A DNA stretch of 64,000 nucleotides from Escherichia coli. Its GTDB lineage: Bacteria > Pseudomonadota > Gammaproteobacteria > Enterobacterales > Enterobacteriaceae. The translations under genes were made by a program, and so were the position numbers. Positions 2,891 through 60,733 of this stretch are shown in pieces. Where the stretch lies: assembly GCF_003790525.1 (NCBI RefSeq), contig NZ_CP033635.1; one strand, given 5' to 3'. Within the stretch, counting starts at the first letter, position 1. The number at the start of each line of letters is the position of its first letter. The notes under the pieces are model-generated. The model did no database searches. It was not told where the DNA came from and saw only the letters and a list, made by a program, of their open reading frames with translations.

Positions 2891-2893
2891 ATT

Positions 2894-30442: not shown

Positions 30443-33400
30443 TTGTCACCTCCGGACAGATGTTGCAATGTATTTTCGTCAATTGGCCCGAATGCAACGT
30501 GCCAACCCCTGGTTGTGAATAATGGAATAAATTCTTGATTATCAATAATCAATGCCCATTTTTGTGATGGCCAGGCGAGATCGGCTTCCGCAATAATTTC
30601 ACCTTCATCATTTTGCAATTCGTAGCCGAGAGTCGGCGCAGAGAGAGAATGAGACTGAAGCAACGCGATCTCTTCAGCGCTTAATAAGCCAAACTCAATA
30701 ATCTCAGCCCAACTTTCATCAGTCTCTGGTACTGCCTCTGGCGTTGCCGTAACTTTAACGTCAACGCTTTCCTGCGGTAAATGCACGGCTTTACGGCTGG
30801 TAAAGGTCATATCCGGCAGGAACTGTAACAGGTTTACCAGTCGCCAGAAGCCATTGAGTCCCGCTTCATAACCGTCATCCTGCGTATAGCGATCGTCAAA
30901 ACAGATATGCAAACGCAGCCAGCTGCGCATTTGTGCGACACTGGTCGTCGGTTTAATGGCTTGTTGTGGCAACACCGAAGCCAGCTCAATAAATTGCTGC
31001 GATGAGTTACAGCTATCGAGTAAACCACCAAAGACAAACGGTTCGTCTGGCAAAAGCTCTGCTAGCCGCCAGGCTGGCGCGTTTTCCTGCATTTCATAGG
31101 CATACTTTTGTTTCGTTCCCGCGTCCTGTGACTTCTTCACATCCAACCACACCCAGGCATGTGCAGCAGCCATTTTCTGCCATAACTGCGTTCTTCCTCC
31201 CGGATCGGCGAGATAATCCAGCAGCAGTGCAAAACTGTTGCGTTCCCGGAACGACGCTTCAAGGGCCGCAAAGTTGGTATCGTGAAACAGGTTATAAAAC
31301 TTAGGCTGTTTCATATCCGGGTTATGCCCAAGCCCCAGGACATCCTGAACATGTTTAAGCCCAGGCTCTTTGAGATCGGCCCACGTGACTGTCCACACCC
31401 AGAAATTATCGCTATCCCGAATCGCCTGGCGTTTTTGCACATCCTCTGCGACGCTATTTTTGTGAAACGCAAAGCCATCAAGGAAAATAGCTACCGGTTT
31501 AATGGCATCAGACTGCATAAGCGGATATAGCACGTAATCCGGGCGACAAGGGATCCCCACCGCCTCTTTAGCGCCTAAATCCACCTGAGCTTTAAGATGC
31601 CAGCTCATCATCGGTTCGCTGCGGGTGTTAATAATCCACCCAGCGCCCTGATGCGCGTAACTGCGACTGACAATCAGGTTTTTATTTTCTTGCAGGCAGC
31701 TAATAAACCGTTTTTCCAGCTCACTGCCCATCATGGCTTCGAGGGAAATGTTTTTGATGGAATCAATTACCCGTATCGAATCTCTTGCCTGCAAAATTTT
31801 CGCCAGCAAGAGACGCGCCTGATCGCGGGAGACATACTTCATGCGCCCACGGTCACGGTAAGCGTAAACGCAACGATAACAACCATCTTTATGCGTATCA
31901 TGGTTGCAACTGCATTCCACTATCGCCTGATAGGCCAGTTCAAGTAATTTCAGCAAATTGTCGGGAGTGCGCATCAGCTCTTTAAGAGAACCAGTTCCCC
32001 CCGGGACGGTATCGTAAATCACCAGATACTGCCGCCAGGATTCGCCTTCATTTTCCGGCTCGCGGTACACAACGCCTTTCAGGTGATCGACATTCCCCTT
32101 GAAGTAATGTTTAAGACCTAGCTGGATCGCCGCCCCAAGAGAAGCCTCCACGACACGGTCATTACTGTAACTGCTTACCGGGAGCAGAATACGCAACGCT
32201 TCTGACTCCAGCTGGCGATAGAGATAGAGATAATCTTCGAACTTCGCCTTTTCGGGTTCCGTGCGATATTTGCAGCTCAAATCATGACGTGGTTCATGAT
32301 CGCGAGGACGCTGCACCATGCCGCACCCGAGGCAAACTTTAAACCCGGTTCGCTTCTTCGCTTCTCCGGCAATCATCAACTCATTGGCATCATCCGCCAT
32401 TTTGCCGAAGTTGATATCCCGCAGGGTGACTTTGCTTAAAAATTCAAAACCAAACGGAACTTCGCCTTCCTCAATCGCGTATGCCGCCGATACATCTTCT
32501 TTTTCGAAACTAACCAATAGCTGACGCTGGAAGAAAGCAGGTTCACGGCTGTCGCTCTCGTCGCTGATCTGGCTATCACGTGCGCTGGCGCGGGCATACA
32601 CCTGGCGAAGTTTCAGCAGCGTGGTTTTTTGTCCGGCGTCGGCCCACCCCGGTGTGCCACATTTCGGGCAATATTTATGCTGGTCGCCCGTCTGGTCGAT
32701 ATTTTCGCTGTAGTTACAGTGGCTACAGATACGCCAGTTCTCCGGCTCAGAGACCTTCAGGTCTATCTGCTCAATTTCAACTTTATGCCCACCGGCATAG
32801 AAATTATTCAGCGGAGCCAGCTCAGCCAGCGCCGTTGATGCCGGGCGTTCATATTCGAAAGTGGTGTTTTGATATTCACGCGCTTCCCCGCCTTCTTTAC
32901 GCCGCCAGAGCACAGAACGTAACGTAATACCGGCTTCCGGGAAGGCGTAGTTAGGCAGCAGACCTTCATCCGTGAGGAAATTCAGCGTCTGCTTATTGTT
33001 GATTTGATTTACCAGCGCCATCAGCGCCTGCCGTTCTGAAGTTAACTCGCGCATATCGCTGTCAAAGTTTTGATCGCGCGGCGCGTTCTCCAGCTTATCG
33101 ATACTGCGCTTGAGTTTATCGATGCGTGAACGCAGAGATTTGCGATCTTCCACCAGCAGTTTTAACGCTTCTTCGATACGCTGCACCAGCGAACGCTGTC
33201 CAGGCGCACCCTGAAGATAAGACAACAACTGTTGGCGAGTTTCTGCGGCAAGATCGGGGAAGATCGCCGTAAATTGTGCAGCAATCTCCGCATGATGCTG
33301 TTCGATATATCTCAGTAAGTTATACGGAAAACCCGATTTACGCCCGAACTCCAGCTCATCCAGCATCTGTTTGACGTTTTTACAGATAGCGGATTCTGGT

Positions 33401-36400
33401 ACACCGGTTTTCACCCAGTTATCCATACAAAAAGCTGCCAGCTGGCGTTCGAGAATAGCCGTTGCATTGAGGAAGACGCCAGGAGCCTGCACCTGGCCCT
33501 GCATCATCTCCAGTGGTTCTTCAAAGAAAAACTGATCGTGCGGGTTCCCTTCTGCCACGGTAATGTTTAACGCGTTACCATCTTTACGACCGGCGCGACC
33601 AATACGCTGCAAGTAGTTGGCCTGAGCAGGTGGGACAGAACAGAGTAAAACGGTGGAAAGATCCCCAACGTCGATACCCATCTCCAGCGTCGGTGTTGCC
33701 GACAACAGGTTGATATTCCACGGTTGGTTGCCGCGGTAGAACGATTTTTCGGTGGCTTCGCGATCTTCACGGCTAAGCAGCCCCGTGTGTTCTGCGCCCT
33801 GCACGCGCGCGATGTCCATGTTCTCCCAACGCCAGGTCGCCGTATTGTCGACTTCCTGGTAACGACCTTCACAACGTAAAGAGAGACAAGGCGCATTACG
33901 CCACTGCCAGCCTTGATCGGCCGGAGCCCGGACAACCTCACGGCAACATGAGCAATTAAGCTGAACGACGTCACGGCTCACCACCAGCGCCGAAGGCACC
34001 AGTCCCCAGGCTTCACGCCCTTTGGTGTCAAAATCTTTTACTACTCCGGCTATTTTCAACGCCGTAAACAGGCGTCGTAACACCGTTTCCGCAACGCTAC
34101 TGATAAACAGATTATTGCCGTTACTCAGCGTGCGATTGATCCAATGCTGATACCAACTGGGGTTAGACTTCGCGCCAATCAGGCGATGGAAACCATTAAT
34201 TTTTTCAAACGACGCATAAGCCGGTTTACGCGTTTTCGGACCGATAGAAGGCATATAGCGCGAGGTACGCTCTTTTTGCGTCATCATAAAGGTCGTGCCA
34301 TCACGGCGATAACTTTCGAACGCCGGATGCATAACGGCCCCGGCCTGGCGTTGATACCAAATAACCCCCAGCGCCAGGTGCGCGACCTGCTCGACGCTCA
34401 CACCGGACATCTCATCACCCAGCTCTTCACAAAGCTGTTGATGCAGGGCGGTAATTGCCGGATTAAAGCGTTCTTTATCCACTCCGGCAACGGCATAACC
34501 GGTGGCTTCCAGCGTACGTCCGATACGCGCGCGCAGGGTAAATTCGCTGTACACCTCCCAGTCGAGGCGCAGGGAAACCAGCTCCGGCAGATCGGAGTTC
34601 TCCGCCAGTTTGCCTTCATTTTTCAGCGTCTGATAATCATTCAGCCACTGCATATTTGGTGCGATGAAGTTCGCTGCAAAATGAGCATCGTCCGGTGAAC
34701 GTTCACGCGTTTGTTGGCAAACACGCGCCGCGAACGCATCCAGCGGTAATGTCTCTTTTTCGCCAAGAACACTGGCGATTTGCCCACGAATCATCAGCGG
34801 CCAGGTTCGGGCAGTAAAAAAGCTGGCACGATGCGCGGCGTCTTGTACCGAGTCAGAAAACGTAATCAGCTTTTTATGTTCGTTGAACTGGCTGCCATAA
34901 AGCTGGTGAATCATCACCGCCGACAGACTGGCAGCCCGTGACCCCAAAATCGAAATCCCCTGTTTGCTGTTGCAGTACGGGCATTCATTAGCAAACTCCA
35001 GCTCGTCCTTACGCTCTTTGAGCATATCCGGGATCAGTACCTGCAACAGCTCTGTATGACCACAATGTCCACACTGGACGCTGGACTGTCGGTTCAGTTT
35101 CAGGCAGGTAGGGCACAGTTTCTGGTGTGCGCCACTGACCGCTTTTTCGTTGTTATCCGGGAAAGCGAGGACGATGGAGCGCCCTTTTTCAAAGAACTGG
35201 CGATAAATGCCGTCGAGGTCTGTTTCCAGCTGAACGCTTTGCCCATGACGCAGGCTGGCCCAGCCGGTTGCGTGGCAGTCACGGCAGTGGATAACCGGCA
35301 AATAGTGTTCGCGGTCTTCCACCGCCACATCATCGGCAAACACCAGTCGCGGCGTTTTCGCCACGCTGGCGACCAGACGACGCATCTCACGAAGCCACAA
35401 CTGGGAGCGCAGTTGCACAAATGGCAGCACCGGACGCACTTTCTTCGCCTGGAGACGTTTTTGCCGATCGTGTTCCGTTTCCGGTACTTCGAGACGTGCC
35501 TGCGCGATCAGTGCCAGAATGCTTTGCAGCACGCGTCGGGCATGGTCGGCGCTTTCTGCCAGCATAACCTGGAGATTTTCCAGACACTCTCGTTCAGAGA
35601 GGATCCCGCCTTGCAGATCATGGAGTAAGACATGCATCACGCTGTGGCGGCGTAACAGTGACCCCAGCGCAATACGCTTTTCACGCCCGTCGTCGCTCTC
35701 CAGATCGTCCGGGAGTTGCAAGTCGCTGTCGGGGAACCACAAAGGGATTTGCCCGTTAAGATACGCTACCGGGGTAGCGTAACTCTGCGGGTCCAGGGCC
35801 GAAGCGACCTCCGGCCCCGGATACTGACTGTACGCAATGGCATAATCCTGCAAGTACTCCGCTGCCGTGTAGCGATCTTCGCGAATAACGGCGTCATCGG
35901 TAAACGGCTGGTCAAAGATTGTTTTTGCGTAATCGAGCAGTTGCCCCAGTTCGTCGCCGACGGTAGCTGATGTCCCGACGCAGGCGAATCGTTGGTTATC
36001 CACACCTATGTGATGCTTCAGACGTCGCACCAGACAGGCCAGATCCGACCCTTGCGCGCCATCAAACGTATGCAATTCATCCACGACCAGGTAACGCAAT
36101 GAGCCGGGCTGGTTGTAACGCCAGAGCGGCTGATCGCCAGGGCGCATCAGCAGGTAGTCGAGCATTTTGTAGTTGGTCAACAGGATGTCCGGCGGGCTTT
36201 CGCGCAGCGTGTGCTTACAGGTAATGACCTTTTCTGCCGACATTTTCTTGCTGGGTTCGATTTCGCTGTCGCCGACAAACAAGCCGACGGTCACCTTGCC
36301 ATGCAGTTGTGGATCGCTGGCGATGGTTTTGGCGAAACGGCTGGCCTGATCGGTTGCCAGGGCGTTCATCGGGTAGATGATAATTGCTTTAACCCCGGCT

Positions 36401-36780
36401 TGTGACGCGCCCGCGCAGTGGTTGAGCAGCGGGAACATAAAACATTCTGTTTTACCGGAGCCGGTACCGGTTGCGACCAGCGTCGGCTGTGGCGCGTCGC
36501 TTCCCAGACGCTGAAATGCCCGGGCCTGATGCGCGTGCGGCGGGAACGGCAGCGTCAGATTAGGGAAAAAATTCAGCGGTAAGTCACTTTTACGAAACGG
36601 CAACTGGGCGGAAAGGTATGGTCCTTTCAGCAGCGTTTCGGGCTGGGCCAGAAATTGCTCCAGCATTGAGACATTATCGTTATTCTCACCGTTAAACAGC
36701 GGGCTGTTTAGCGGGAACGCCGCCCGTAAAAAGGCGGCAACGCTGTCGGCGACCTGCCGACTGACAACGGACGGCAACAT
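30439..36780 (-). CDS. Giant DEAD/DEAH-box helicase with C-terminal DUF1998-like zinc ribbon (2113 aa); DrmA+DrmB-fusion-like or DruE-like
   Basis: Motif I ATGTGSGKTECF, motif II VVDELHTF, motif VI LQRIGRAGRKDG; Cys-rich module YDTVPGGTGS...ECSCNHDTHKDGCYRCVYAYRDRG...; 1-nt overlap with the upstream methyltransferase stop. Confidence 0.8.
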   Translation of the reverse strand: MLPSVVSRQVADSVAAFLRAAFPLNSPLFNGENNDNVSMLEQFLAQPETLLKGPYLSAQLPFRKSDLPLNFFPNLTLPFPPHAHQARAFQRLGSDAPQPTLVATGTGSGKTECFMFPLLNHCAGASQAGVKAIIIYPMNALATDQASRFAKTIASDPQLHGKVTVGLFVGDSEIEPSKKMSAEKVITCKHTLRESPPDILLTNYKMLDYLLMRPGDQPLWRYNQPGSLRYLVVDELHTFDGAQGSDLACLVRRLKHHIGVDNQRFACVGTSATVGDELGQLLDYAKTIFDQPFTDDAVIREDRYTAAEYLQDYAIAYSQYPGPEVASALDPQSYATPVAYLNGQIPLWFPDSDLQLPDDLESDDGREKRIALGSLLRRHSVMHVLLHDLQGGILSERECLENLQVMLAESADHARRVLQSILALIAQARLEVPETEHDRQKRLQAKKVRPVLPFVQLRSQLWLREMRRLVASVAKTPRLVFADDVAVEDREHYLPVIHCRDCHATGWASLRHGQSVQLETDLDGIYRQFFEKGRSIVLAFPDNNEKAVSGAHQKLCPTCLKLNRQSSVQCGHCGHTELLQVLIPDMLKERKDELEFANECPYCNSKQGISILGSRAASLSAVMIHQLYGSQFNEHKKLITFSDSVQDAAHRASFFTARTWPLMIRGQIASVLGEKETLPLDAFAARVCQQTRERSPDDAHFAANFIAPNMQWLNDYQTLKNEGKLAENSDLPELVSLRLDWEVYSEFTLRARIGRTLEATGYAVAGVDKERFNPAITALHQQLCEELGDEMSGVSVEQVAHLALGVIWYQRQAGAVMHPAFESYRRDGTTFMMTQKERTSRYMPSIGPKTRKPAYASFEKINGFHRLIGAKSNPSWYQHWINRTLSNGNNLFISSVAETVLRRLFTALKIAGVVKDFDTKGREAWGLVPSALVVSRDVVQLNCSCCREVVRAPADQGWQWRNAPCLSLRCEGRYQEVDNTATWRWENMDIARVQGAEHTGLLSREDREATEKSFYRGNQPWNINLLSATPTLEMGIDVGDLSTVLLCSVPPAQANYLQRIGRAGRKDGNALNITVAEGNPHDQFFFEEPLEMMQGQVQAPGVFLNATAILERQLAAFCMDNWVKTGVPESAICKNVKQMLDELEFGRKSGFPYNLLRYIEQHHAEIAAQFTAIFPDLAAETRQQLLSYLQGAPGQRSLVQRIEEALKLLVEDRKSLRSRIDKLKRSIDKLENAPRDQNFDSDMRELTSERQALMALVNQINNKQTLNFLTDEGLLPNYAFPEAGITLRSVLWRRKEGGEAREYQNTTFEYERPASTALAELAPLNNFYAGGHKVEIEQIDLKVSEPENWRICSHCNYSENIDQTGDQHKYCPKCGTPGWADAGQKTTLLKLRQVYARASARDSQISDESDSREPAFFQRQLLVSFEKEDVSAAYAIEEGEVPFGFEFLSKVTLRDINFGKMADDANELMIAGEAKKRTGFKVCLGCGMVQRPRDHEPRHDLSCKYRTEPEKAKFEDYLYLYRQLESEALRILLPVSSYSNDRVVEASLGAAIQLGLKHYFKGNVDHLKGVVYREPENEGESWRQYLVIYDTVPGGTGSLKELMRTPDNLLKLLELAYQAIVECSCNHDTHKDGCYRCVYAYRDRGRMKYVSRDQARLLLAKILQARDSIRVIDSIKNISLEAMMGSELEKRFISCLQENKNLIVSRSYAHQGAGWIINTRSEPMMSWHLKAQVDLGAKEAVGIPCRPDYVLYPLMQSDAIKPVAIFLDGFAFHKNSVAEDVQKRQAIRDSDNFWVWTVTWADLKEPGLKHVQDVLGLGHNPDMKQPKFYNLFHDTNFAALEASFRERNSFALLLDYLADPGGRTQLWQKMAAAHAWVWLDVKKSQDAGTKQKYAYEMQENAPAWRLAELLPDEPFVFGGLLDSCNSSQQFIELASVLPQQAIKPTTSVAQMRSWLRLHICFDDRYTQDDGYEAGLNGFWRLVNLLQFLPDMTFTSRKAVHLPQESVDVKVTATPEAVPETDESWAEIIEFGLLSAEEIALLQSHSLSAPTLGYELQNDEGEIIAEADLAWPSQKWALIIDNQEFIPLFTTRGWHVAFGPIDENTLQHLSGGDK

Positions 36781-39700
36781 CAGGCGCTCTCCTTATCTTG
36801 TGCAAAGAACGCCCAGGCCACTTTGTAGTCGTCTTCGCGATCCGGCTTGATAAACGGTGCCTGCCAGGTGACGGTACGGCGCTCGCCTTCGTCGCTGCGG
36901 GTATAGTCATCAAAGGTAACGCTGACGGTACCGGTTTGCAGATGTTTGACATCATCCCAGCCGATGGCTTGATCGGTGCAGTCACCGCCGGTCCAGTCCG
37001 GGCTGTCGACGTTAAAGACAAAGCCGTTTTTCAGGTCAGCTTTACGCGCGGTACGAGGCAAGCCAACGCCCACCAGCCCTTTGCTTGGGGTAAAGATAAT
37101 GCGACCGTTTTGATCGTACCAGGTGTCCGCTTCGTACTGGCGCATCACCGGGAACTGAATACGGTAGATGGCGAGTAGTTCTTCGAGGGTTAGCCCCAGC
37201 GCCTGCGCCACCAGCACGTCGATTTCCACCAGCGCCTGACGGCGGCTGTAGTCGGAGCGTAAGGCGCAGTTACGCTGCCATTCTGGGGTCAGATTGGTGA
37301 AGAAATCCTGGGGGAGCTGTGGGAGATCGCGGCTCCAATATTGTATTTTAAATTCTGAGGAATAAATGGAACACCACAATTTTTTATAATGCTCTGTTAT
37401 ACTAACCAAAGCCATCGACCTTGCATGTAAAGAGGCTCTAAACTTCTCATTACTTAATAATGGAAGTTGATTAACTAATGACTGATTCGCATGCCCCATG
37501 CCAGTACACTTGACTCTATAATCTACGACAATGGACAAAGACATCGAAAAGAAATCAAGTAAATCATAGTCATGTTTAAAAATAGTGCTTAGACACGTAT
37601 TAATATGAGAAATACCGGGAGGTATTATAGTTGCGATGAAAGTTCGTTCAGAAGTTGAACCTATCATTTCCCGATTAACAAATCTATAGCCATTAGTCAC
37701 AGGAAAGACATTACCATCCCAAGAAACTGTCGGAATTCGATTTAGAAAATCGGAATACTCGCAATTAGGAATATAATTAACCCTAGGCATATAATTATCA
37801 GGAATAGTCATCAAATCAATGGAGTCATAGTCACTATTTAATTTACATAAAGTCCGTGGCGTTTTGTAATAAGCATTCCCCACAAAGAAATGTGGTCCAG
37901 ATAATATCCATTGTGAAATTCCAGAGGGGAATTCCGTTTTCCTTTTAGTTGTACCATCTCTTTGAGCAAATGTTTCATCAAACATCACTGTAGAATAATA
38001 ATTATTTTTTATTGAAGATAGTTTTTTTGATTTAACATCAAATTTACGTAAAACTTCCAATAATTGTACTGTATGTAAAGCTGGAAGCCTTGCGTGCAGT
38101 GCAGGTGTTGAATTATCATCAAATATCCCCGCAAACAAACGTAACTCATCAATAGTAATTGTTAATACTCTTGATTTATGGGGTGATATATTCCAATTTA
38201 TTTTCAGTTTATCCCCATTGTAAGATTCTTCCTTGATACCAGGAATTTCCCCTTGATTATCATGCAAAATACTTGAATCTATTGTATACACAGAGAACAA
38301 ATTTGACATGTGTGTAAATGAAGGCGATTCTTGCAATGGACCATAAATATTAATACTAAATGTTGTTGCATGATGAACATCGGGAAAAAGCCCTAATTCA
38401 TTTTGAAATTGATAATGGTCACGCAAACGGCAGTAAATTTTGGCACGAAGTTCCCCCGCCTTGCTATCATCATAAACTCCATCAGGGTGCAATAACCCTG
38501 AAACACCATGTTCAGAAATAAGTCGCCATGAGACTGGTAAAAAACATTTATATAGATTTGTTTTTTGCCCTAACAAGCATGAAAAATTTTGCTGACTATT
38601 TAGATAGTTCTGTAATCCAACGGCAGATTCAAACTCACTTCGCCATGCATCTTCTAATCCATAGACTCGTGCAAAAGATTCTTCTCGGAGAGAAGATATA
38701 TTGGCAGCGCTAAGATTGTGCAGTACAAGCTCAGGTTTATAATCTCCCAATATTCCGCGTTCTTCCCATACAACTTTTAGCCACGGCGGGTTTCCGAGCA
38801 TCAGGTCAAAACCGCCGCGCTCGGCAAACAGGTCGCAGAACTCCAGATCCCAGTGGAAGAAACGGTACTGCTTTCTCAGGGCATCGACAATCGCCAGACG
38901 CGGCAAATGACGGAACAACACCTCGGTTTTCAGACGACCTGCGCCGGAAAACAGTGAAGACTCTTCTCGCAGCAGACCTTCTTCGGCAAACAGATCGCCG
39001 GTGGTGTGCTCCGCAACTTCAGTGACTTTTTCCGTGATTACAATCCCGTCGAGCAGGGTTTCAATCTCAAACAACCAGGTGCCGCGATCCGGTAGCTCAT
39101 CGGCTTTGTCGATCGGCCAGAACCACAGCGCGCACCAGTAGTCCATCACCCAACGCAGCTTCTGGTAGGCACTGTTATCTTCAAGACGACCACTGAAGGT
39201 TTCATCTTTACTGCTCAGCGAAGAACGCGTCTGCTCGCTGTTTTCTGCCGGCCACACCGGGTAGCTGTCGGCGGTTTTCAGACGTTCTGCTTTAAGTTGC
39301 TGGCGATAGGTGTTCCACAGAGCTTCCACCTTTTCGCTGATACGCTGCACATCAGCAATCTCATGCCCGGCAAAGCTTTTAATAAACTCTTTGCGCCAGC
39401 TGTCCAGGGCTTTGAAGTCATCCGGATAACGCTGCTTAACGGTTTTATCGCTGTAGTTAGCCATACCGCCGTCGGGCAGCAGGAAGTGAAAAATCTGCGT
39501 CTCTTCACGCGGCGTGTTCATCGCCAGTTCGACCGGCTCGCTGTTAAGCCAGCTCGGATCTTTGGCTTTTTTGTAGGTCAGTTCACTCTTGTTGAACACC
39601 TGACGGCGCGCGCCCACCAGCGAGTTACCGCAGTGCAGCTGGTAACCAAACCACGGTACAAAGGCATCGCCACTGATGGCGTTCAGCCACAGCGACACTT

Positions 39701-41702
39701 CCGCCAGTTCCACCGCCACCGGGTTTAAGTCCACGCCGAAAACGTTGTTGTCGGCAATGTACATTTTCACCCGCTGTAACTCCTGGGTGTAACGATCCTG
39801 CGGAATACGGCGACCTTCCGCCTGCTGCTTGTGGAACAGATACGCTTCCGCCAGCTGGTTGATGGCTTCGTTAAGGAACGCCGCGCTGCCCATCGCCGGT
39901 TCGCACACGGTGAGGTTTAAGATGGCATCAGCTTTAGCGTGCAGATCGGTAATCGGATCAATTTGCTCTTTAAACAGTTCTTTCAGGGCATATTTAACCA
40001 GTGAGCGGGTCAGCACTTCCGGGGTGTAATAAGAGGCAGATTTCTCACGGTCGCGCCCGGCCATACGGTAGATAAAACTGCCTTTGCGGTGAATGCGCAG
40101 ACTGCCGTCTTTCTCGTAGACCTTCTCGTCTTCGTGGTATTTGCCAATCTCATCCTTACTGACGAAGTAACCCGTCTCCAGCTCGTTAAACTCTTCCCCG
40201 GCTTTCTTCACCTCGTAGAGATCTTCGCTGGCGAAGAATCCGCGATAGGAGAGCAGCGCCTCATACACCGCACCCAACTGGTTGATACCCAACTGGCGAT
40301 AAGAAATACGTCCGCGGCGGTTAAAGCGCCCTTTGCCCGGGCGGCTTAACGACATCGCCTGGATAATCTGTTGCAGGGTTTCGTTACGGAATACCACGCG
40401 GTTAAGAATGCGCGTGTTGTTGGCATCAAACAGATGACTTTCCAGACGCGGGACGCTGAACTGATGACTATGGATGGTGATCCGGTCGCCGCTCTCCAGG
40501 TCACTCTGCATTTTCACGCCGCCGTTGTAGCCTTCGCGCACCAGTTTAAACAGCATATTCAGGCTGTCGTGGAAGTAGCGCCCGTTGCGATCTTCTTCGC
40601 TGGTCAGCGGGATCATCTCCAGATCGCGCAACGTTTCCAGGCTGTAACCTTGCAGATAGGTTTTGGCTGTCATTGGCGCATAACCCAGCTCCGGGCGCGC
40701 TTCAATGTAGAACAGGAACAGCAGGCGGTACATGTAACGCAGACATTCGCGGCTCAGTTCATCCGGGTCCACCGCACGGTTACCGGTATAGTTTGCCAGG
40801 CCACGGTCGATCAGATAATGCATCGCTTCGTTGCCCAACAACTCTATGCTTTCGCGCAGGGCATATTTCAGATCTTCCGAAACACCAAACGCATGTTTGT
40901 GCGAATTGTCATCCAGCGAGTCAAGATATGGTGCCCCACTGCCCGGCAGCAGCGAATCTTTATGTAGCAACACTGCCGTCGCTTTCAGCGTATCCGTTTC
41001 ACGACGACTTAAAATCTCTTCAAAATCAAAACGTAGCAGACGGTTTTGCGCCCACTTAGTACGGTCCAACAACAATAGCTGACGGTTACCGAGCAGCAGC
41101 ACAAAACGCGGCGGTTCATTTTGGGTGAAGACCGCCGTAGAGAGCAGATCCTGCCAGCTGCGATATTCACCGTTGGCTTTTTTGCGCAGGCTGTCGCGCT
41201 TATGTTTGTCGGTATCCGCCGGGAATTGCGCGGTCAGTAAGGAGAGCGCCAGCGGATCCAGCGTTCCTTCTTCCTGATCGTGTGCTTCAACAATCCACAG
41301 CCACGGGCTACCGTCAGTGCTGTTGTAACGCGCCAGTACTGGCAGTGGTGTATCGTCATCCAGCATTTGGATCTGCGGCGTAATTTCGTAGCCCAGCGCC
41401 TTTAACAATGGCTGCCAGCGATTACGTTGATCGGCCAGACGCTGCGGGATCTGACGCTGTTTTTCGTGCTCGGCAAGTTTGCGGAAAAACTCAGTCGCCA
41501 GACTGTTAAACTGGTTCCACGGAGCGCGGTATCCCGGCTCTACGTCTTTGCCCTGTTCACGAGCGGCACGCTCCGCTTCACGCGCTGCATTTTCCTGGGC
41601 TATCCAGGGTTCCAGCACATCGCGGATATCACTGGTGAATACCTCACCCAAATAGTGGTTAGAGTAAAATTCGTTTTCGTTATTAATACCGACCAGCGCC
41701 AT
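36780..41702 (-). CDS. Large amino-methyltransferase (N6-adenine or N4-cytosine, 1640 aa); DrmMI/PglX-like
   Basis: SAM-binding motif I VCEPAMGSAAFL and catalytic motif IV GNPPW in gamma-class order; starts 2 nt after the SNF2 gene stop. Confidence 0.8.
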   Translation of the reverse strand: MALVGINNENEFYSNHYLGEVFTSDIRDVLEPWIAQENAAREAERAAREQGKDVEPGYRAPWNQFNSLATEFFRKLAEHEKQRQIPQRLADQRNRWQPLLKALGYEITPQIQMLDDDTPLPVLARYNSTDGSPWLWIVEAHDQEEGTLDPLALSLLTAQFPADTDKHKRDSLRKKANGEYRSWQDLLSTAVFTQNEPPRFVLLLGNRQLLLLDRTKWAQNRLLRFDFEEILSRRETDTLKATAVLLHKDSLLPGSGAPYLDSLDDNSHKHAFGVSEDLKYALRESIELLGNEAMHYLIDRGLANYTGNRAVDPDELSRECLRYMYRLLFLFYIEARPELGYAPMTAKTYLQGYSLETLRDLEMIPLTSEEDRNGRYFHDSLNMLFKLVREGYNGGVKMQSDLESGDRITIHSHQFSVPRLESHLFDANNTRILNRVVFRNETLQQIIQAMSLSRPGKGRFNRRGRISYRQLGINQLGAVYEALLSYRGFFASEDLYEVKKAGEEFNELETGYFVSKDEIGKYHEDEKVYEKDGSLRIHRKGSFIYRMAGRDREKSASYYTPEVLTRSLVKYALKELFKEQIDPITDLHAKADAILNLTVCEPAMGSAAFLNEAINQLAEAYLFHKQQAEGRRIPQDRYTQELQRVKMYIADNNVFGVDLNPVAVELAEVSLWLNAISGDAFVPWFGYQLHCGNSLVGARRQVFNKSELTYKKAKDPSWLNSEPVELAMNTPREETQIFHFLLPDGGMANYSDKTVKQRYPDDFKALDSWRKEFIKSFAGHEIADVQRISEKVEALWNTYRQQLKAERLKTADSYPVWPAENSEQTRSSLSSKDETFSGRLEDNSAYQKLRWVMDYWCALWFWPIDKADELPDRGTWLFEIETLLDGIVITEKVTEVAEHTTGDLFAEEGLLREESSLFSGAGRLKTEVLFRHLPRLAIVDALRKQYRFFHWDLEFCDLFAERGGFDLMLGNPPWLKVVWEERGILGDYKPELVLHNLSAANISSLREESFARVYGLEDAWRSEFESAVGLQNYLNSQQNFSCLLGQKTNLYKCFLPVSWRLISEHGVSGLLHPDGVYDDSKAGELRAKIYCRLRDHYQFQNELGLFPDVHHATTFSINIYGPLQESPSFTHMSNLFSVYTIDSSILHDNQGEIPGIKEESYNGDKLKINWNISPHKSRVLTITIDELRLFAGIFDDNSTPALHARLPALHTVQLLEVLRKFDVKSKKLSSIKNNYYSTVMFDETFAQRDGTTKRKTEFPSGISQWILSGPHFFVGNAYYKTPRTLCKLNSDYDSIDLMTIPDNYMPRVNYIPNCEYSDFLNRIPTVSWDGNVFPVTNGYRFVNREMIGSTSERTFIATIIPPGISHINTCLSTIFKHDYDLLDFFSMSLSIVVDYRVKCTGMGHANQSLVNQLPLLSNEKFRASLHARSMALVSITEHYKKLWCSIYSSEFKIQYWSRDLPQLPQDFFTNLTPEWQRNCALRSDYSRRQALVEIDVLVAQALGLTLEELLAIYRIQFPVMRQYEADTWYDQNGRIIFTPSKGLVGVGLPRTARKADLKNGFVFNVDSPDWTGGDCTDQAIGWDDVKHLQTGTVSVTFDDYTRSDEGERRTVTWQAPFIKPDREDDYKVAWAFFAQDKESA

Positions 41703-41704
41703 GA

Positions 41705-51110: not shown

Positions 51111-54100
51111 ACTCCTGCTTGTTCAAAATAATATTGATAGATTACCCCTAATTGCTGCGGGGCTTGCTGATAGTGGAATTCAAAAAGCGCAGACAGTTGA
51201 TGTATCAAGTTATTATCTTTTTGGGTTAACAGCGCTGCGACTAACATCAAATTAAAACGTTTTTCAAGCCGTGAGTGATATTTATTTTTAATCCAAAGCT
51301 TATTAAAAACAGATTTTAACTCTGGAGTAATCGCACTAGACCAAAGTTCTTTAGGGAAGATACTGATACGCCCAAAGCTGTCGGGGTTCCTTAATAGCAT
51401 CTGTTTAGCTTCATTAAACTGCTCACGACTAACAGTTGGCAAGACATTACAACCGGCTGGTAGGAGTTTGCTATATGTAAGTAACATATTCGCAATGGGA
51501 GCCAGACGACGATCGATATGTGCACGATGGTTCATAAAAGCAATAAAGGGTTGCAATATATGTAATGCTAATGTTTTATCGTTAATCTGTTTTTCCAGAT
51601 AAGCCCAACACTTTTGAAAAACATCTTTCCAGATTGAAACGGGAATCCATCCCCATGAAAAGGGTAATTCTTCCTGTATATCATAAATCGTATCGCTATC
51701 ACCAGAAAGACATGATGATATTAACAACTGAACAACTACGCGGTAATTACTCGAAATACCTCTGAACAAATCCAGATCCAGCAAGGATAAGCCATTATTC
51801 ATTTTGTATTTCTTAATATACTCCGTTAATAAACAGCAATAATTTTGCAAAGGATTGTTATCTATTTCAAAAATTAGCTCATTAAAATATTTTTTTCGCT
51901 GTTCGGAATCCGCTTCGCATAGAGCATTAAGTAATAAATCATTTGTCTGTAATACAGGTAGCCCCCATTTAATTACTGGTGCAATGCGAGCTGTACCATC
52001 AAGTTTCCCCACAATTAACCATGGGCTATCCTGAACATTCAGAGCTGAAAGATCATAAGCAAATTCATCTTTTTTTAGCAACGATATGTGTAAGCCAGGA
52101 TCCTTAAGAGAAATAGCATCAACAACCAGCTCGTCTATTCTATTTGCAGGAAAAACAACAGAATTTTTTATATCAACCAGTAACCCTTGATCGTGTTCAA
52201 TAAAACTACCATCGTAGCGTTTAATACTGAGTGTTGCTTTATCCTTTCCAAATCTGTCAGAGTAAAAATCAACACATAATGTACTATTGCTGCTCCATGC
52301 ACATGCCAGCATAGCATTTAGCAAATTATAGTTCTCATAAAGTGAAATTTGTTTTAATTTGTCATTGCATCCTGATAAAAGAGGAAGGTCGGCATGTAAA
52401 TAACGGAATTTTTCAGCTACTGGATTTTCATCCAACAACTCGATATTAAGATATCCTCTTCCAGCACAAGATATGGTTAACAACTCAGCATCTATTCCAT
52501 GCAAATGCGCTATAGATGCCACACCATCAAAATGAACAGAACCATCATGAGTTACAAATCGGCCACCGCTAACCGGCTTAGGTAATAATAGTTTAAGATT
52601 AGAACCATCTTTCCAGGAGACCCGTAAATCAACGGTATTTTCCAGCATCTCCGATGAATTATAATAAATAGCACACTCGTTTTGTGAATAATCGGACTTA
52701 AGTGTTACTTTTTCATTGTTTGAATATTTGTCAATTCTAGTATCCGTTATACCAGAAAGCATTATGATGCCTTGCTGAGCACTCTCAGGTATAATATTAA
52801 TATCGAAGTCAGCTGGTAAAACTACAACTTTACCGCTAAATAAAACCTCATCATTAACTATTCGTCTGACTTCTATCTGTCCTTTTGGCATTTTTGATGC
52901 GACAGAATACCAGGCATTGTTACCTGAACGAATGGAACGCCAAAAAAGTTCTTTCTCCGGTACAATGCCATATTGCAGATCCTTTTTCCAACCGATCTTC
53001 GGCCAGGCTCGATGGACAGGATAATCCGATTTAACCAGTTCAACTTCTGTCGATTTAATATAATATTCAATCGCAGAATCATAAAGTTGCTGGGTGCGAA
53101 TTGTACAAACTGCACCATCATGTAAAACAACGCTAAATACTCCACTTATTTTAGTTAAGCTGCGTTCACTGTTTTTCAGCAACCTTGGGATATCAAACTC
53201 ACCTTCTCCACTAATATCTAAATGGCTATTTTTCGGTAGCGAAATAAACAGAGCATTTAGCCTGGAACTCACAGACCCCATACCGACAAGTTTTAGCTGC
53301 GATTCACTCTCATTCATCGCTTCAAAAACCCAGGGGAGTTCTTCAGTAAGTTCATAACCGCCTTTTGGAATTGTGTGGCCTAACAGAATTGGACCTTCAT
53401 GAAGCGACAACGAGATTTCGGCCATTGCATCTGCACCAGAGAGCTTTTGCATCGCAATAGGTAATAACTCGACCCGCCAATCTTGCTGCTCATAACGGCT
53501 TAGCATTGCCAACCTTGCCCCGCCATTTCTCCATTTTCCTGAAATGATGAGTCGGGTCTGCTCCGGCTGAATATTGCATTCAAACAAAGAGGTTAACTGT
53601 TCTGTACGCATTGTGGCCGGGAATCGGAACCGGGCATCACAATACCAACTGTCATCAACATCGACCCAGATTCTTTCAACCTGAAGACTACTTGCACTGC
53701 GTATTTCAGAAGATTGAGAAAGTAATCGCCTTACAATCTCTGCAGCATTCGCTTCGGGGAGAACGAGTGGAAGTTGAAGGTGCCAGTCTGGAGAGAGCTT
53801 ACGTAATGCAGAAACGGGATCACTGCTTTGAGGTGGATGCTCACTAAGTAATCGGCAGAGAGTCTCGCAGAATTCACCGGCTATTTCATAGACCAGTTCG
53901 TTTTGCATTGTGACAGGAATCGTATCGCCTAATTCTTGTGCAATTTTAGCGGCAGGATATTGAGATGCTTGCCCACGAAGCGCCTGATATATCCTTCTGA
54001 AATAGGTAATCAAATAACCGCTCTCATTTTCAATCATGCGGATAGGTAAACCACCTTCACAAGCCAGTGTATGCAGATAACCCGAAGCTTGCCCCAGGTT

Positions 54101-54460
54101 TCTTATCTTTCTTTTCCAGTAGCGAATGCCATCATTAACCAGCTTCTGTCGATGAACATACGGAACTTTCCAGTCAATAGAATCTAAAATTGTGTCCCAT
54201 TTAGGGTGTCCGACCGTATGAGTCCGGCGGATAAACTCTGCGGCATATATGCTAAATAGAACATCGCTATAGGAAATGAATATCGTTCTTGGATAACTAC
54301 GGGGGGCATATGTACGCAGTAGTTCTGCCAAACTTTCGTACTCTGTATCAGTACAACGGTAAGCATATAACGCCCGTCCATCAGCTCCGGATAATGAACG
54401 GCGACTAAAAAACATGTTAAGCCATTGCAAAAGTGGGTTAACTGGAGTTTTCACAAGCAA
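51101..54460 (-). CDS. Large protein of unknown function (up to 1119 aa; true start uncertain); DruH-like partner of the helicase
   Basis: Long intact ORF with no recognisable catalytic motif; AT-rich codon usage; translationally coupled to the downstream helicase. Confidence 0.6.
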   Translation of the reverse strand: MLVKTPVNPLLQWLNMFFSRRSLSGADGRALYAYRCTDTEYESLAELLRTYAPRSYPRTIFISYSDVLFSIYAAEFIRRTHTVGHPKWDTILDSIDWKVPYVHRQKLVNDGIRYWKRKIRNLGQASGYLHTLACEGGLPIRMIENESGYLITYFRRIYQALRGQASQYPAAKIAQELGDTIPVTMQNELVYEIAGEFCETLCRLLSEHPPQSSDPVSALRKLSPDWHLQLPLVLPEANAAEIVRRLLSQSSEIRSASSLQVERIWVDVDDSWYCDARFRFPATMRTEQLTSLFECNIQPEQTRLIISGKWRNGGARLAMLSRYEQQDWRVELLPIAMQKLSGADAMAEISLSLHEGPILLGHTIPKGGYELTEELPWVFEAMNESESQLKLVGMGSVSSRLNALFISLPKNSHLDISGEGEFDIPRLLKNSERSLTKISGVFSVVLHDGAVCTIRTQQLYDSAIEYYIKSTEVELVKSDYPVHRAWPKIGWKKDLQYGIVPEKELFWRSIRSGNNAWYSVASKMPKGQIEVRRIVNDEVLFSGKVVVLPADFDINIIPESAQQGIIMLSGITDTRIDKYSNNEKVTLKSDYSQNECAIYYNSSEMLENTVDLRVSWKDGSNLKLLLPKPVSGGRFVTHDGSVHFDGVASIAHLHGIDAELLTISCAGRGYLNIELLDENPVAEKFRYLHADLPLLSGCNDKLKQISLYENYNLLNAMLACAWSSNSTLCVDFYSDRFGKDKATLSIKRYDGSFIEHDQGLLVDIKNSVVFPANRIDELVVDAISLKDPGLHISLLKKDEFAYDLSALNVQDSPWLIVGKLDGTARIAPVIKWGLPVLQTNDLLLNALCEADSEQRKKYFNELIFEIDNNPLQNYCCLLTEYIKKYKMNNGLSLLDLDLFRGISSNYRVVVQLLISSCLSGDSDTIYDIQEELPFSWGWIPVSIWKDVFQKCWAYLEKQINDKTLALHILQPFIAFMNHRAHIDRRLAPIANMLLTYSKLLPAGCNVLPTVSREQFNEAKQMLLRNPDSFGRISIFPKELWSSAITPELKSVFNKLWIKNKYHSRLEKRFNLMLVAALLTQKDNNLIHQLSALFEFHYQQAPQQLGVIYQYYFEQAGVCH

Positions 54461-54671
54461 CCTGCCTTCCTTTGATACAATTCGTAACAGGTTACTATCA
54501 TCATAAAAAAGCTCAACCCGATGAACTCGCTAAAAATGAGACAAATCATTTATATCTCGAAAAAACTTGTTACAATCATGAGCGCTACACCGAACTTAAC
54601 CATATAAATTATGTGTGTTTTGTTTATTTTTTAAACAATTACAACTATCCATTATTTACACAGGTATCAAA

Positions 54672-56324
54672 ATGTTAGCGCAGCTTTTTGAGCAGTTGTT
54701 TCAATCGATAGACTCTACACTGATCACCAATATTTTCATCTGGGCTGTTATATTCGTATTTTTATCAGCGTGGTGGTGTGACAAAAAAAATATACATAGT
54801 AAGTTTAGAGAATATGCTCCAACCTTAATGGGGGCATTAGGTATTCTGGGTACTTTCATTGGTATTATTATTGGGTTACTCAATTTTAATACTGAAAGTA
54901 TTGATACCAGCATCCCCGTATTATTAGGCGGCCTAAAAACAGCATTCATTACAAGCATTGTAGGTATGTTTTTTGCCATTTTATTTAATGGAATGGATGC
55001 TTTCTTTTTTGCCAATAAACGAAGTGCGTTAGCAGAAAATAACCCTGAATCTGTTACACCTGAACATATCTATCATGAATTAAAAGAGCAGAACCAGACT
55101 CTGACTAAATTAGTCTCGGGTATTAACGGTGATAGTGAAGGTTCTCTTATTGCTCAAATAAAATTACTACGTACTGAGATTAGCGATTCCTCGCAGGCAC
55201 AATTAGCTAATCACACTCATTTCAGTAATAAGCTTTGGGAACAACTTGAACAATTTGCAGATCTAATGGCAAAAGGTGCTACAGAACAAATTATTGATGC
55301 TTTACGACAAGTCATTATTGATTTTAATGAAAATTTAACTGAACAGTTTGGTGAAAACTTTAAAGCACTTGATGCCTCTGTAAAAAAACTTGTTGAGTGG
55401 CAGGAAAATTATAAAACGCAAGTTGAGCTGATGTCAGAACAATATCAACAAAGTGTCGAGTCTCTGGTTGAAACAAAAACTGCGGTTGCCGGGATTTGGG
55501 AAGAATGTAAAGAAATTCCTCTGGCTATGTCTGAACTGCGTGAAGTGCTTCAGGTGAACCAACATCAAATCAGCGAACTCTCCCGCCATTTAGAAACCTT
55601 TGTCGCCATCCGCGATAAAGCTACAACCGTATTACCTGAAATACAGAACAAAATGGCTGAAGTGGGTGAACTGCTGAAATCCGGAGCTGCAAATGTTAGT
55701 GCATCTCTTGAGCAAACCAGCCAGCAAATACTTCTTAATGCAGATTCAATGCGCGTGGCCCTGGATGAAGGTACCGAAGGATTCAGACAATCGGTTACCC
55801 AAACACAACAAGCATTTGCCTCGATGGCACATGATGTCAGCAATTCCTCCGAAACTCTAACCAGCACGTTAGGTGAAACAATTACTGAAATGAAACAAAG
55901 TGGTGAAGAATTCCTGAAGTCACTAGAGTCGCACTCGAAAGAATTGCATAGAAATATGGAACAAAATACGACTAATGTAATTGATATGTTCAGTAAGACT
56001 GGTGAAAAGATTAACCATCAACTATCCAGTAATGCCGATAATATGTTTGATTCAATCCAGACATCATTTGATAAGGCAAGTGCAGGGCTGACTTCTCAAG
56101 TCAGAGAATCAATTGAAAAATTTGCTCTATCCATCAACGAGCAGTTACATGCTTTTGAGCAAGCAACTGAACGTGAGATGAACCGTGAAATGCAATCATT
56201 AGGTAATGCTCTGCTTTCAATCAGCAAAGGTTTTGTCGGTAACTATGAAAAACTTATTAAAGATTACCAAATAATTATGGGGCAGTTACAAGCATTAATT
56301 TCTGCTAATAAACATCGAGGGTAA
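54672..56324 (+). CDS. zorA: Zorya ZorA (MotA/ExbB/TolQ-like membrane protein with long coiled-coil tail)
   Basis: N-terminal multi-TM region followed by a long, heptad-rich, low-complexity tail; start taken at ATG 54672 (track ORF begins at an upstream GTG). Confidence 0.7.
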   Translation: MLAQLFEQLFQSIDSTLITNIFIWAVIFVFLSAWWCDKKNIHSKFREYAPTLMGALGILGTFIGIIIGLLNFNTESIDTSIPVLLGGLKTAFITSIVGMFFAILFNGMDAFFFANKRSALAENNPESVTPEHIYHELKEQNQTLTKLVSGINGDSEGSLIAQIKLLRTEISDSSQAQLANHTHFSNKLWEQLEQFADLMAKGATEQIIDALRQVIIDFNENLTEQFGENFKALDASVKKLVEWQENYKTQVELMSEQYQQSVESLVETKTAVAGIWEECKEIPLAMSELREVLQVNQHQISELSRHLETFVAIRDKATTVLPEIQNKMAEVGELLKSGAANVSASLEQTSQQILLNADSMRVALDEGTEGFRQSVTQTQQAFASMAHDVSNSSETLTSTLGETITEMKQSGEEFLKSLESHSKELHRNMEQNTTNVIDMFSKTGEKINHQLSSNADNMFDSIQTSFDKASAGLTSQVRESIEKFALSINEQLHAFEQATEREMNREMQSLGNALLSISKGFVGNYEKLIKDYQIIMGQLQALISANKHRG

Positions 56325-56330
56325 TCGATC

Positions 56331-57038: not shown

Positions 57039-57041
57039 GAG

Positions 57042-59613: not shown

Positions 59614-59692
59614 GGAGAATGTCCTTATACGTTCTCAGAACAGGCAGCAAAAAAACAAATGAGATCAAGGTAATATATCTTCACTTGCAGGC

Positions 59693-60622: not shown

Positions 60623-60733
60623 GGTTGATAACTATCGCGTCCCTATAATCTTGCCATCTCGTGCATTGAGATGTTAAAAGCTACAAATGTTCTCCCTATT
60701 TTTCAATGTAGACATTTATAGCAATATCAAAAT

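What the first reader, a model, noticed from the sequence alone, without database searches (positions are those of the whole stretch)
37330..38750. AT-rich mosaic segment inside the methyltransferase gene, downstream of the NPPW motif
Within one intact ORF, about 1.4 kb is visibly AT-rich while the flanking coding sequence is GC-balanced. The segment lies on the C-terminal side of the catalytic NPPW motif, where gamma-class amino-MTases carry their target-recognition domain. This pattern suggests a recombinationally swapped specificity module.
Basis: partly seen in the sequence, partly recalled or inferred. Interest (0 to 1): 0.6.

Follow-up and report, generated by a model that had tools for sequence, protein, structure and literature searches.

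The report
Swapped DNA-recognition cassette in ArmB methyltransferase
The AT-rich stretch is real: it is the interchangeable DNA-recognition part of ArmB, the methyltransferase of the recently described ARMADA II anti-phage system, and E. coli strains carry dozens of versions of it on an otherwise near-identical gene.

Summary
Observation confirmed and interpretation supported. The window is E. coli SMS-3-5. The ORF (36780..41702, minus strand, 1640 aa) is ArmB, the PglX-like N6-adenine methyltransferase of ARMADA type II (armABCD), next to Druantia III and Zorya II. GC falls from 0.54-0.58 to 0.352 (GC3 0.64 to 0.26) over window 37323..38762, starting right after the NPPW codons. The same interval is where homologues diverge: the framework is about 99% identical, while aa 981-1460 are 27-67% identical. 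At least 33 alleles exist among 120 protein clusters. Of 525 E. coli genomes with the gene, 17 carry the SMS-3-5 allele. In the common alleles, two sub-blocks (aa ~1100-1290 and ~1341-1450) reassort independently across a conserved linker. The modelled hypervariable part matches only DNA-recognition modules (PglX, M.BseCI, CamA, MmeI, BpuSI, Type I HsdS). No repeats or silent cassettes are present, so strains differ by allelic replacement and do not switch by phase variation. The SMS-3-5 allele belongs to a rare, deep, especially AT-rich class. Published work names ARMADA II and notes that armB varies, but does not localise the variation. That the alleles change DNA specificity is inferred, since no methylome data were found. 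This is a new example of a known phenomenon.

The parts
36780..41702 (-). armB: the 1640-aa PglX/DrmMI-like gamma-class N6-adenine DNA methyltransferase of ARMADA type II
   Evidence: Intact ORF. Full-length match to PADLOC REase_MTase_IIG PDLC03614 and DrmMI-like matches. Pfam Eco57I. 100% identical to NC_010498.1, annotated as class I SAM-dependent DNA methyltransferase. Residue numbers G605 and N971 match the mutants published in 10.1101/2025.09.15.676423.
39882..39902 (-). MTase motif I (EPAMGSA, aa 601-607; SAM-binding GxG)
   Evidence: G605A gave partial loss of defence in the published ArmB.
38781..38792 (-). MTase motif IV (NPPW, aa 971-974). The 5' recombination breakpoint lies immediately after it.
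   Evidence: N971A abolished defence in the published ArmB.
37323..38762 (-). AT-rich replaced segment (aa 981-1460): C-terminal half of the catalytic domain, TRD and helical spacer. This is the SMS-3-5 allele cassette.
   Evidence: GC 0.352 and GC3 0.256. Protein identity to other alleles 0.27-0.67. DNA identity drops from 93-100% to about 62% at gene nt 2940 and recovers at nt 4380. Nucleotide breakpoints at window 38778 and 37338. 12.3% rare codons, against about 2% in the flanks.
37833..38405 (-). Hypervariable block A (aa ~1100-1290): end of the catalytic domain plus the TRD core
   Evidence: Column entropy 1.2-1.6 bits for aa 1101-1200. 17 types at 90% identity. Pair profiles show it swaps independently of block B.
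37683..37820 (-). Conserved linker (aa ~1295-1340) between blocks A and B; likely crossover site in the common alleles
   Evidence: DNA identity 0.79-0.95 among 10 common alleles, but 0.42-0.63 to SMS-3-5. Low entropy.
37353..37682 (-). Hypervariable block B (aa ~1341-1450): beta strands followed by helices (possible TRD lobe and spacer helices)
   Evidence: Entropy 1.3-2.2 bits. 19 types and 39 A/B combinations; five pairs of A types show all four combinations.
36783..37322 (-). Conserved C-terminal domain of ArmB (aa 1461-1640). Its first ~60 codons (down to window ~37158) may belong to the imported tract.
   Evidence: Identity 0.89-1.0. Mild mismatch cluster at gene nt 4383-4545.
41705..44563 (-). 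armA: SNF2/BrxHII/DrmD-like helicase
   Evidence: The protein WP_001041505.1 is identical in strains with three different armB alleles.
30439..36780 (-). armC: YprA/DruE-like DEAD/DEAH helicase-nuclease (2113 aa); overlaps armB by 1 nt
28328..30442 (-). armD: UvrD/GajB-like helicase
44787..54460 (-). Druantia type III (druH 51101-54460, druE 44787-51110) upstream in the same orientation
   Evidence: PADLOC DruH3/DruE3 full-length matches; NCBIfam YjiT_fam.
54615..58145 (+). Zorya type II (zorA2, zorB2, zorE), divergently transcribed
   Evidence: NCBIfam equivalogs above cutoff; RefSeq annotation.

Best explanation
The AT-rich 1.44 kb encodes the DNA-recognition part of ArmB, the methyltransferase of the ARMADA type II anti-phage system. 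It covers the last part of the catalytic domain, an HsdS-like target-recognition domain (TRD) and a helical spacer.

It behaves as an allelic cassette. The flanking armB sequence and the neighbouring arm genes are near-identical between strains, so homologous recombination in those flanks can replace the middle of the gene with a diverged version. In the common alleles, crossovers in a conserved ~40-codon linker also reshuffle two sub-blocks (A and B). SMS-3-5 carries a rare allele class that is diverged and unusually AT-rich throughout, and it was exchanged as one piece whose 5' junction sits directly after the NPPW codons.

By analogy with BREX PglX, where the TRD alone sets the motif used for both host methylation and phage targeting, each allele most likely sets which short DNA motif ARMADA recognises. 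Strains would then differ in which phages are restricted, and phages modified in one strain would remain sensitive in another.

Shown here: the composition shift, the hypervariability, the recombination and the TRD-type fold. Inferred: that alleles differ in DNA sequence specificity, and that ArmB methylates host DNA.
For: **System identity.** The gene order is SNF2, MTase, YprA-like helicase, UvrD-like helicase. NPPW and GxG sit at the published residue numbers N971 and G605. The preprint names SMS-3-5 as a carrier and says island diversity lies mostly in armB.

**Hypervariability confined to aa 981-1460.**. At least 33 alleles sit on a ~99% identical framework.

**Replacement in other genomes.** 17 of the 525 E. 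coli genomes with the gene match over its full length; the rest match the flanks in two pieces with the same total span. The SMS-3-5 segment is 99.9-100% identical in 17 genomes.

**Sharp breakpoints.**

**Recombination inside the segment.** 17 A types and 19 B types occur in 39 combinations, with four-combination tests positive for five A-type pairs. Block similarity is weakly coupled to framework similarity (Spearman 0.29 and 0.09). Pair profiles are, and DNA-level partial matches (for example 1-1084 of 1460 nt at 98%) are.

**Partner protein does not co-vary.** ArmA is identical in strains with three different alleles.

[quoted passage not shown] The middle part of PglX/DrmMI-like MTases is swapped while the N- and C-termini stay constant.
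Against: - No experimental methylation motif for any ArmB allele was found. The ARMADA preprint does not mention methylation at all.
- The O145:H28 methylomes show only GATC and CTGCAG. This is uninformative, because armB is a frameshifted pseudogene in the O145 genomes examined.
- What blocks A and B each contact is unknown.
- A low-GC donor genome does not explain the trough. The trough also occurs in a distant framework, and the adjacent imported tract is GC-normal.
Confidence: 0.8

Rival explanations
1. The segment diversifies to escape phage-encoded inhibitors (Ocr-like DNA mimics or other anti-ARMADA proteins that bind the DNA-binding surface), not to change DNA sequence specificity.
For: Ocr binds PglX/BrxX, the closest structural relatives (PDB 8q56 and 9ex7 among the hits). 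The partner protein ArmA does not co-vary, so the variable surface faces something external.
Against: Alleles are old, discrete classes at 30-65% identity. Their scaffold residues are conserved across phyla and they exchange as modules. That is the pattern of HsdS, mod and PglX specificity domains. An inhibitor arms race would more likely give scattered surface substitutions. The two explanations are not mutually exclusive.
Confidence: 0.1
2. The AT-richness is a functional or regulatory property of the DNA or mRNA (H-NS binding, an internal promoter, translational slowing by rare codons) and has nothing to do with horizontal exchange.
For: Rare codons make up 12.3% of the segment against about 2% of the flanks. 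Every allele shows a GC3 trough, also in a distant framework, so the low GC is persistent.
Against: Promoter-like sites are not enriched (6 found, 6.4 expected). The trough coincides to within a few nucleotides with the divergence breakpoints. Its depth varies from GC 0.35 to 0.47 between alleles. GC3 changes far more than GC2, so this is not an amino-acid effect alone.
Confidence: 0.05
3. The segment is a relaxed or decaying region of a gene that no longer needs it, so it drifts and becomes AT-rich.
For: armB is frameshifted in the O145 lineage and in one other strain, so loss does happen.
Against: The ORF is intact in SMS-3-5 and in nearly all alleles. The segment is 99.9-100% identical across 17 genomes. 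28 columns are invariant and many more nearly invariant across 91 homologues from distant phyla. The fold is predicted confidently. ArmB is essential for defence in the published system.
Confidence: 0.02
4. Within-strain phase variation: the segment is switched by programmed inversion with silent cassettes, as in some PglX/DrmMI-like genes.
For: There is precedent in the same MTase family.
Against: No inverted or direct repeats longer than about 30 nt occur in window 26000-46000, and none involves the segment. No recombinase gene lies between nanM and Zorya. There is one copy per genome.
Confidence: 0.01

Closest known systems
ArmB of ARMADA type II (E. coli NCTC 12900, EDL933, ATCC 8739; bioRxiv 10.1101/2025.09.15.676423 and 10.1101/2025.09.22.677730)
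   Same: Same gene, same operon and same island. The framework is about 97.6% identical in DNA to the O157:H7 gene. NPPW N971 and G605 sit at identical positions. SMS-3-5 is named as a carrier, and armB is reported as the variable gene of the island.
   Different: The SMS-3-5 TRD cassette is only about 48% identical in protein to the O157:H7 cassette. The preprints do not localise the variation, call it a TRD, report sub-block shuffling or a GC trough, or give any methylation data.
BREX PglX/BrxX (PDB 8C45, 8Q56, 9EWZ)
   Same: Best or near-best structural match for the region. Same layout: N-terminal helical region, gamma-class MTase, HsdS-like TRD, helices, conserved C-terminal domain. The catalytic motif is needed for defence. 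In PglX the TRD sets the motif for both methylation and defence.
   Different: About 10% sequence identity. ArmB is larger (1640 aa against about 1200 aa), with 370 aa between motifs I and IV. Its partners are helicase-nucleases, not PglZ/BrxC/BrxL. ArmB methylation has not been demonstrated.
Class 1 DISARM DrmMI
   Same: PADLOC DrmMI models match ArmB at E 1e-56. Both are paired with a DrmD-like SNF2 helicase and a YprA/DUF1998 helicase.
   Different: DrmMI models match only parts of ArmB (three stretches). Gene order and nuclease type differ, and ARMADA adds ArmD.
Type I HsdS specificity subunits (TRD1/TRD2 reassortment)
   Different: The blocks lie in a single polypeptide fused to the MTase, not in a separate S subunit. 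Whether block B is a second TRD lobe or a spacer is unresolved.
MmeI-family Type IIL/IIG enzymes and BpuSI
   Different: No nuclease domain is detectable in ArmB; Pfam finds nothing in aa 1-620. Cleavage is presumably delegated to ArmC.
Programmed-inversion switching of PglX/DrmMI-like MTases (Nucleic Acids Res 2023, PMC9881135)
   Same: The middle part of the MTase varies while the N- and C-termini are kept constant.
   Different: Here there are no repeats, silent cassettes or recombinase. Variation is between strains, not within a clone.

Membership tests
ARMADA type II (ArmB) | Strict gene order: BrxHII/SNF2-like helicase, PglX-like MTase, YprA-like helicase-nuclease, GajB/UvrD-like helicase | tested here: met
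   Four co-directional, abutting or overlapping ORFs at 41705-44563, 36780-41702, 30439-36780 and 28328-30442, with the expected family matches.
ARMADA type II (ArmB) | Close sequence identity to an experimentally validated system | tested here: met
   Outside the variable segment the gene is about 97.6% identical in DNA to the O157:H7 gene. NCTC 12900 and EDL933 are O157:H7 strains. SMS-3-5 is listed as a carrier.
ARMADA type II (ArmB) | Anti-phage activity that depends on ArmB | not testable with these tools
   Shown for the O157:H7 and ATCC 8739 systems, not for the SMS-3-5 allele.
Gamma-class N6-adenine DNA methyltransferase | Motif I (GxG), then motif IV (NPPY/W), then a C-terminal TRD | tested here: met
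   EPAMGSA at aa 601 and NPPW at aa 971. Pfam Eco57I. Fold matches to M.TaqI, M.BseCI, CamA and PglX.
Gamma-class N6-adenine DNA methyltransferase | Site-specific m6A methylation of DNA | not testable with these tools
   No methylome assigned to any ArmB allele was found. The O145 data are uninformative because armB is a pseudogene there.
HsdS-like target-recognition domain | TRD fold in the hypervariable segment | tested here: met
HsdS-like target-recognition domain | Alleles confer different DNA sequence specificities | not testable with these tools
   Inferred from the hypervariability and modular exchange and from the PglX precedent.
Type IIG restriction-modification enzyme (PADLOC label) | Endonuclease domain fused to the MTase-TRD polypeptide | tested here: inconclusive
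   No Pfam domain at all in aa 1-620 and no PDB sequence match. The N-terminal fold was not modelled.
Phase-variable (inversion-switched) specificity MTase | Inverted repeats, silent cassettes and a nearby recombinase | tested here: not met
   Only short chance repeats, none in the segment. No recombinase in the island. Single copy per genome.

The most novel reading that the evidence does not exclude
ARMADA II is a motif-directed, PglX-style system whose specificity is written combinatorially in one polypeptide. Block A and block B of ArmB would each read part of an asymmetric or bipartite site. The natural pool (at least 17 A types and 19 B types, plus deep AT-rich classes such as the SMS-3-5 allele) would then be a ready-made specificity library that recombination reshuffles between strains, species and plasmids. 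If so, ARMADA's phage range could be predicted from the armB allele and reprogrammed by block swaps.
Probability: 0.35. Interest if true: 0.6.

Novelty: new member of a known kind. Interest (0 to 1): 0.45.

Why it matters
ARMADA II was described only in 2025. It is the main contributor to phage resistance in EHEC O157:H7, yet how it recognises foreign DNA is unknown, and the describing preprint does not address methylation.

A sharply bounded, recombining, TRD-fold hypervariable cassette in ArmB is strong comparative evidence that sequence-specific DNA recognition is central to the system and is under diversifying selection. That makes the mechanism directly testable by allele swaps combined with methylomes and phage panels.

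Practically, the armB allele, not just the presence of the island, may determine which therapeutic phages a strain resists. The phenomenon itself (specificity-domain swapping in restriction-modification-type methyltransferases) is well known, so this extends it to a new system and does not overturn anything.

Tried and rejected
- **Sequence search against PDB.** The full protein and a 91-sequence profile both gave no hits. Only fold comparison worked.
- **Pfam.** On the C-terminal 840 aa it found only a weak Eco57I match. On aa 1-620 it found nothing. The first Pfam call failed on the length limit.
- **Literature searches for a methylation motif.** Locus tags, O157 methylomes and ATCC 8739 / NCTC 12900 found nothing assignable to ArmB.
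- **O145:H28 SMRT methylomes.** They first looked like evidence against ArmB methylation. I rejected them because armB is a frameshifted pseudogene in the O145 genomes examined. RM13514 and RM13516 themselves were not checked.
- **Search with the segment alone.** It returned mostly partial proteins and did not reveal a donor. The nearest non-self relative is 56% identical, apart from P0048 at 72% found earlier.
- **Plasmid search.** It found only distant alleles at 66-74%.
- **Low-GC donor genome.** Considered and rejected as the sole cause.
- **Phase variation by inversion.** Rejected.
- **Intragenic promoter enrichment.** Rejected.
- **Model coordinates.** They were not available to scripts, so blocks A and B could not be placed in 3D.

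Full report

Yes. A 400-nt sliding window shows GC of 0.56-0.58 at 36000-37200, falling to 0.32-0.36 at 37400-38600 and returning to 0.50-0.55 by 38800. The host ORF is intact but lies on the minus strand: 36780..41702, 1640 aa. In gene coordinates, motif I (EPAMGSA) is at aa 601 and NPPW at aa 971-974 (window 38781..38792). Codon windows for aa 1001-1440 have GC3 of 0.15-0.33, against 0.47-0.78 elsewhere.

For window 37323..38762, GC is 0.352 and GC3 is 0.256. The rest of the gene has GC 0.545 and GC3 0.641. Only 0.6% of 1440-nt windows in the 64 kb, and 0.08% of those within the operon, are as AT-rich. GC2 hardly changes, so this is mainly a synonymous and first-position shift, not an amino-acid effect.

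**2. What is the gene?**

The window is E. coli SMS-3-5, NC_010498.1 4903429-4967428 in reverse complement. The MTase sits in a run of co-directional, abutting genes:

| Gene | Window coordinates | Family match |
|---|---|---|
| druH | 51101-54460 | DruH / YjiT family |
| druE | 44787-51110 | DruE |
| armA | 41705-44563 | SNF2 / DrmD-like helicase |
| armB | 36780-41702 | PglX/DrmMI-like MTase |
| armC | 30439-36780 | 2113-aa DruE-like DEAD/DEAH helicase |
| armD | 28328-30442 | UvrD/GajB-like helicase |

Zorya II is divergently transcribed at 54615-58145.

Two 2025 preprints define the last four genes as ARMADA type II (ArmA-D). They show that all four are needed for phage defence, and that ArmB N971A (NPPW) abolishes protection while G605A weakens it. 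Those are the same residue numbers as here. The EHEC preprint names SMS-3-5 as a carrier. [quoted passage not shown] Neither paper localises that variation, calls it a TRD, or reports methylation data.

**3. Is the AT-rich segment the variable part?**

- **DNA search.** Megablast of the gene against 5426 complete E. coli genomes found it in 525. Only 17 match over the full length. Nearly all the rest match 71% of the query in two pieces at about 97.6% identity, with the same total span of 4905-4935 bp. The middle is therefore replaced, not deleted.
- **Protein alignment.** I aligned the 120 best protein clusters. Identity to SMS-3-5 is 0.89-1.0 for aa 1-980 and 1461-1640, and 0.27-0.67 for aa 981-1460.
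- **Allele count.** Clustering that interval at 90% identity gives 33 alleles on a framework that is about 99% identical within E. coli. At 60% identity there are three deep classes.
- **The SMS-3-5 allele.** It is 44-57% identical to all others except P0048 (72%). Its DNA is 99.9-100% identical in 17 chromosomes from humans, poultry, a pangolin and river water.
- **Breakpoints.** Against allele L005 there are no mismatches from gene nt 2600 to 2924. Dense mismatches start at nt 2925, two bases after the NPPW codons (window 38778), and end at nt 4365 (window 37338). A milder mismatch cluster runs to about nt 4545, which suggests the imported tract extends about 180 nt into the conserved C-terminal domain.

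**4. Internal modularity.**

Among the common alleles, pairwise profiles show alleles that are identical up to about aa 1320 and then unrelated. Others are identical everywhere except aa 1100-1290. Column entropy has two peaks, at aa 1101-1200 and aa 1341-1440, separated by a better-conserved stretch.

Typing the two blocks at 90% identity gives 17 A types and 19 B types in 39 observed combinations. Ten A types have two or more B partners, and five A-type pairs show all four combinations. Block similarity is only weakly related to framework similarity (Spearman 0.29 and 0.09).

At the DNA level a linker of about 40 codons (aa ~1295-1340) is 79-95% identical among ten common alleles, so it is a plausible crossover site. 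SMS-3-5 is diverged there too (42-63%), so it behaves as a single cassette. Partial DNA matches between alleles, such as 1-1084 of 1460 nt at 98%, show the same mosaicism directly.

**5. Is it a TRD?**

- **Limits.** There is no sequence-level PDB match.
- **Layout.** The arrangement mirrors PglX: MTase, HsdS-like TRD, spacer helices, then a conserved C-terminal region.

**6. How the alleles change.**

No direct or inverted repeats of note occur within 26000-46000, and none touches the segment. There is no recombinase in the island, and the segment is single-copy. Programmed inversion, which is known in PglX/DrmMI-like genes, is therefore excluded. Alleles are exchanged between strains by homologous recombination in the conserved flanks.

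ArmA is the identical protein (WP_001041505.1) in SMS-3-5, O157:H7 EC4115 and LR-62-2, which carry three different cassettes. The variable surface is therefore not co-evolving with that partner.

**7. Why is it AT-rich?**

| Allele group | Segment GC | Segment GC3 |
|---|---|---|
| Nine common E. coli alleles | 0.43-0.47 | 0.39-0.45 |
| SMS-3-5 | 0.352 | 0.256 |
| P0048 | 0.362 | 0.271 |
| P0066 | 0.381 | 0.326 |
| Framework, E. coli-type alleles | about 0.54 | about 0.64 |

The three deep classes are the lowest. P0048 sits in a complete ARMADA II locus whose framework is only 86% identical in protein (GC 0.52, GC3 0.58) and shows the same trough. The probably imported tract just downstream is GC-normal.

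The trough therefore travels with the TRD cassette and does not simply reflect a low-GC donor genome. I cannot explain it with the data at hand. One consequence is 12.3% rare codons in the segment, against about 2% in the flanks. Promoter-like sites are not enriched.

**8. Mechanism.**

Shown here:
- a sharply bounded, recombining, hypervariable cassette;
- a TRD fold in that cassette;
- its location in a methyltransferase whose catalytic motif is required for defence (shown by others).

Inferred: each allele specifies a different DNA motif, which ARMADA uses to mark self and/or target phage DNA, as in BREX, where the PglX TRD is the sole specificity factor.

I found no methylome for any ArmB allele. 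The O145:H28 methylomes show only GATC and CTGCAG, but armB is a frameshifted pseudogene in all 17 O145 genomes listed, so they do not bear on the question.

The main rival is diversification to escape DNA-mimic inhibitors. It is not excluded, but it fits the deep, modular allele classes less well.

**9. Verdict.**

The system is already known (ARMADA II), and the phenomenon (specificity-domain swapping) is a known kind. New here are:
- localisation of the reported armB variation to the TRD cassette;
- the allele census and the two-block reassortment;
- the recognition that SMS-3-5 carries a rare, deep, AT-rich class.

Interest is moderate, because this gives a direct experimental handle on how a newly described and medically relevant defence system recognises DNA.

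Noticed in passing
L011 (NZ_CP035767.1) 301-5209; hits H66-H82; L008 301-5233: armB is annotated as a frameshifted or split pseudogene in all 17 listed O145/O145:H28 complete genomes and in strain PNUSAE014970. The EHEC preprint nevertheless counts O145:H28 among carriers of all three systems. ARMADA II may be inactive in that lineage.
   Followed up: partly
window 24039-25776 and 58355-58853: The Zorya-Druantia-ARMADA block lies between intact nanM plus a truncated nanS (sialate O-acetylesterase, missing its C-terminus) and a frameshifted Kelch-repeat (nanM-like) fragment on the far side. This looks like an insertion or duplication scar. No tRNA gene is present anywhere in the window.
   Followed up: no
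window 58972-64000: More defence genes lie beyond Zorya II: an HNH endonuclease (58972-59613), a phosphorothioated-DNA-binding restriction endonuclease (59750-60622), a Wadjet JetD-domain protein (61859-62902) and a large hypothetical protein that runs off the window.
   Followed up: no
window ~30550-30720 (ArmC aa ~2022-2077) and ~57876-58046 (ZorE aa 279-335): The C-terminus of ArmC shares a 57-aa module with ZorE of the same island (40% identity, E 2e-8). PADLOC ZorE2 and NCBIfam ZorE models pick it up too. This may be relevant to the reported cooperation between the island's systems.
   Followed up: partly
window ~51460-52900 (5' half of druH) and 54100-57700 (Zorya II): There are other GC troughs in the island: GC is about 0.36 in the N-terminal half of druH and about 0.37 across zorA/zorB/zorE, against about 0.50 for druE and armA/armC. 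Whether the druH trough is also an allelic mosaic was not tested.
   Followed up: no
window 38793-39881 (ArmB aa 608-970): 370 residues separate MTase motif I from motif IV, so the catalytic domain carries a large insertion. PADLOC DrmMI models match ArmB in separate stretches. The first 620 residues have no Pfam match at all.
   Followed up: partly
plasmid hits (e.g. NZ_LT985234.1, CP057056.1, NZ_CP026578.2): armB homologues with yet other TRD alleles occur at 16 places on E. coli plasmids, several predicted to be conjugative. This is a possible route for spreading cassettes between strains and species.
   Followed up: no
window 41702-41705, 36780, 30439-30442: Gene junctions in armABCD are tight: a 2-nt gap between armA and armB, a 1-nt overlap between armB and armC, and a 4-nt overlap between armC and armD. 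This is consistent with translational coupling.
   Followed up: no
window 5871-7310 and 20791-23340: Two further AT-rich stretches lie outside the island: GC 0.34 over yjiC (DUF2686), and GC 0.35 over the fimB-fimE / fim switch region.
   Followed up: no
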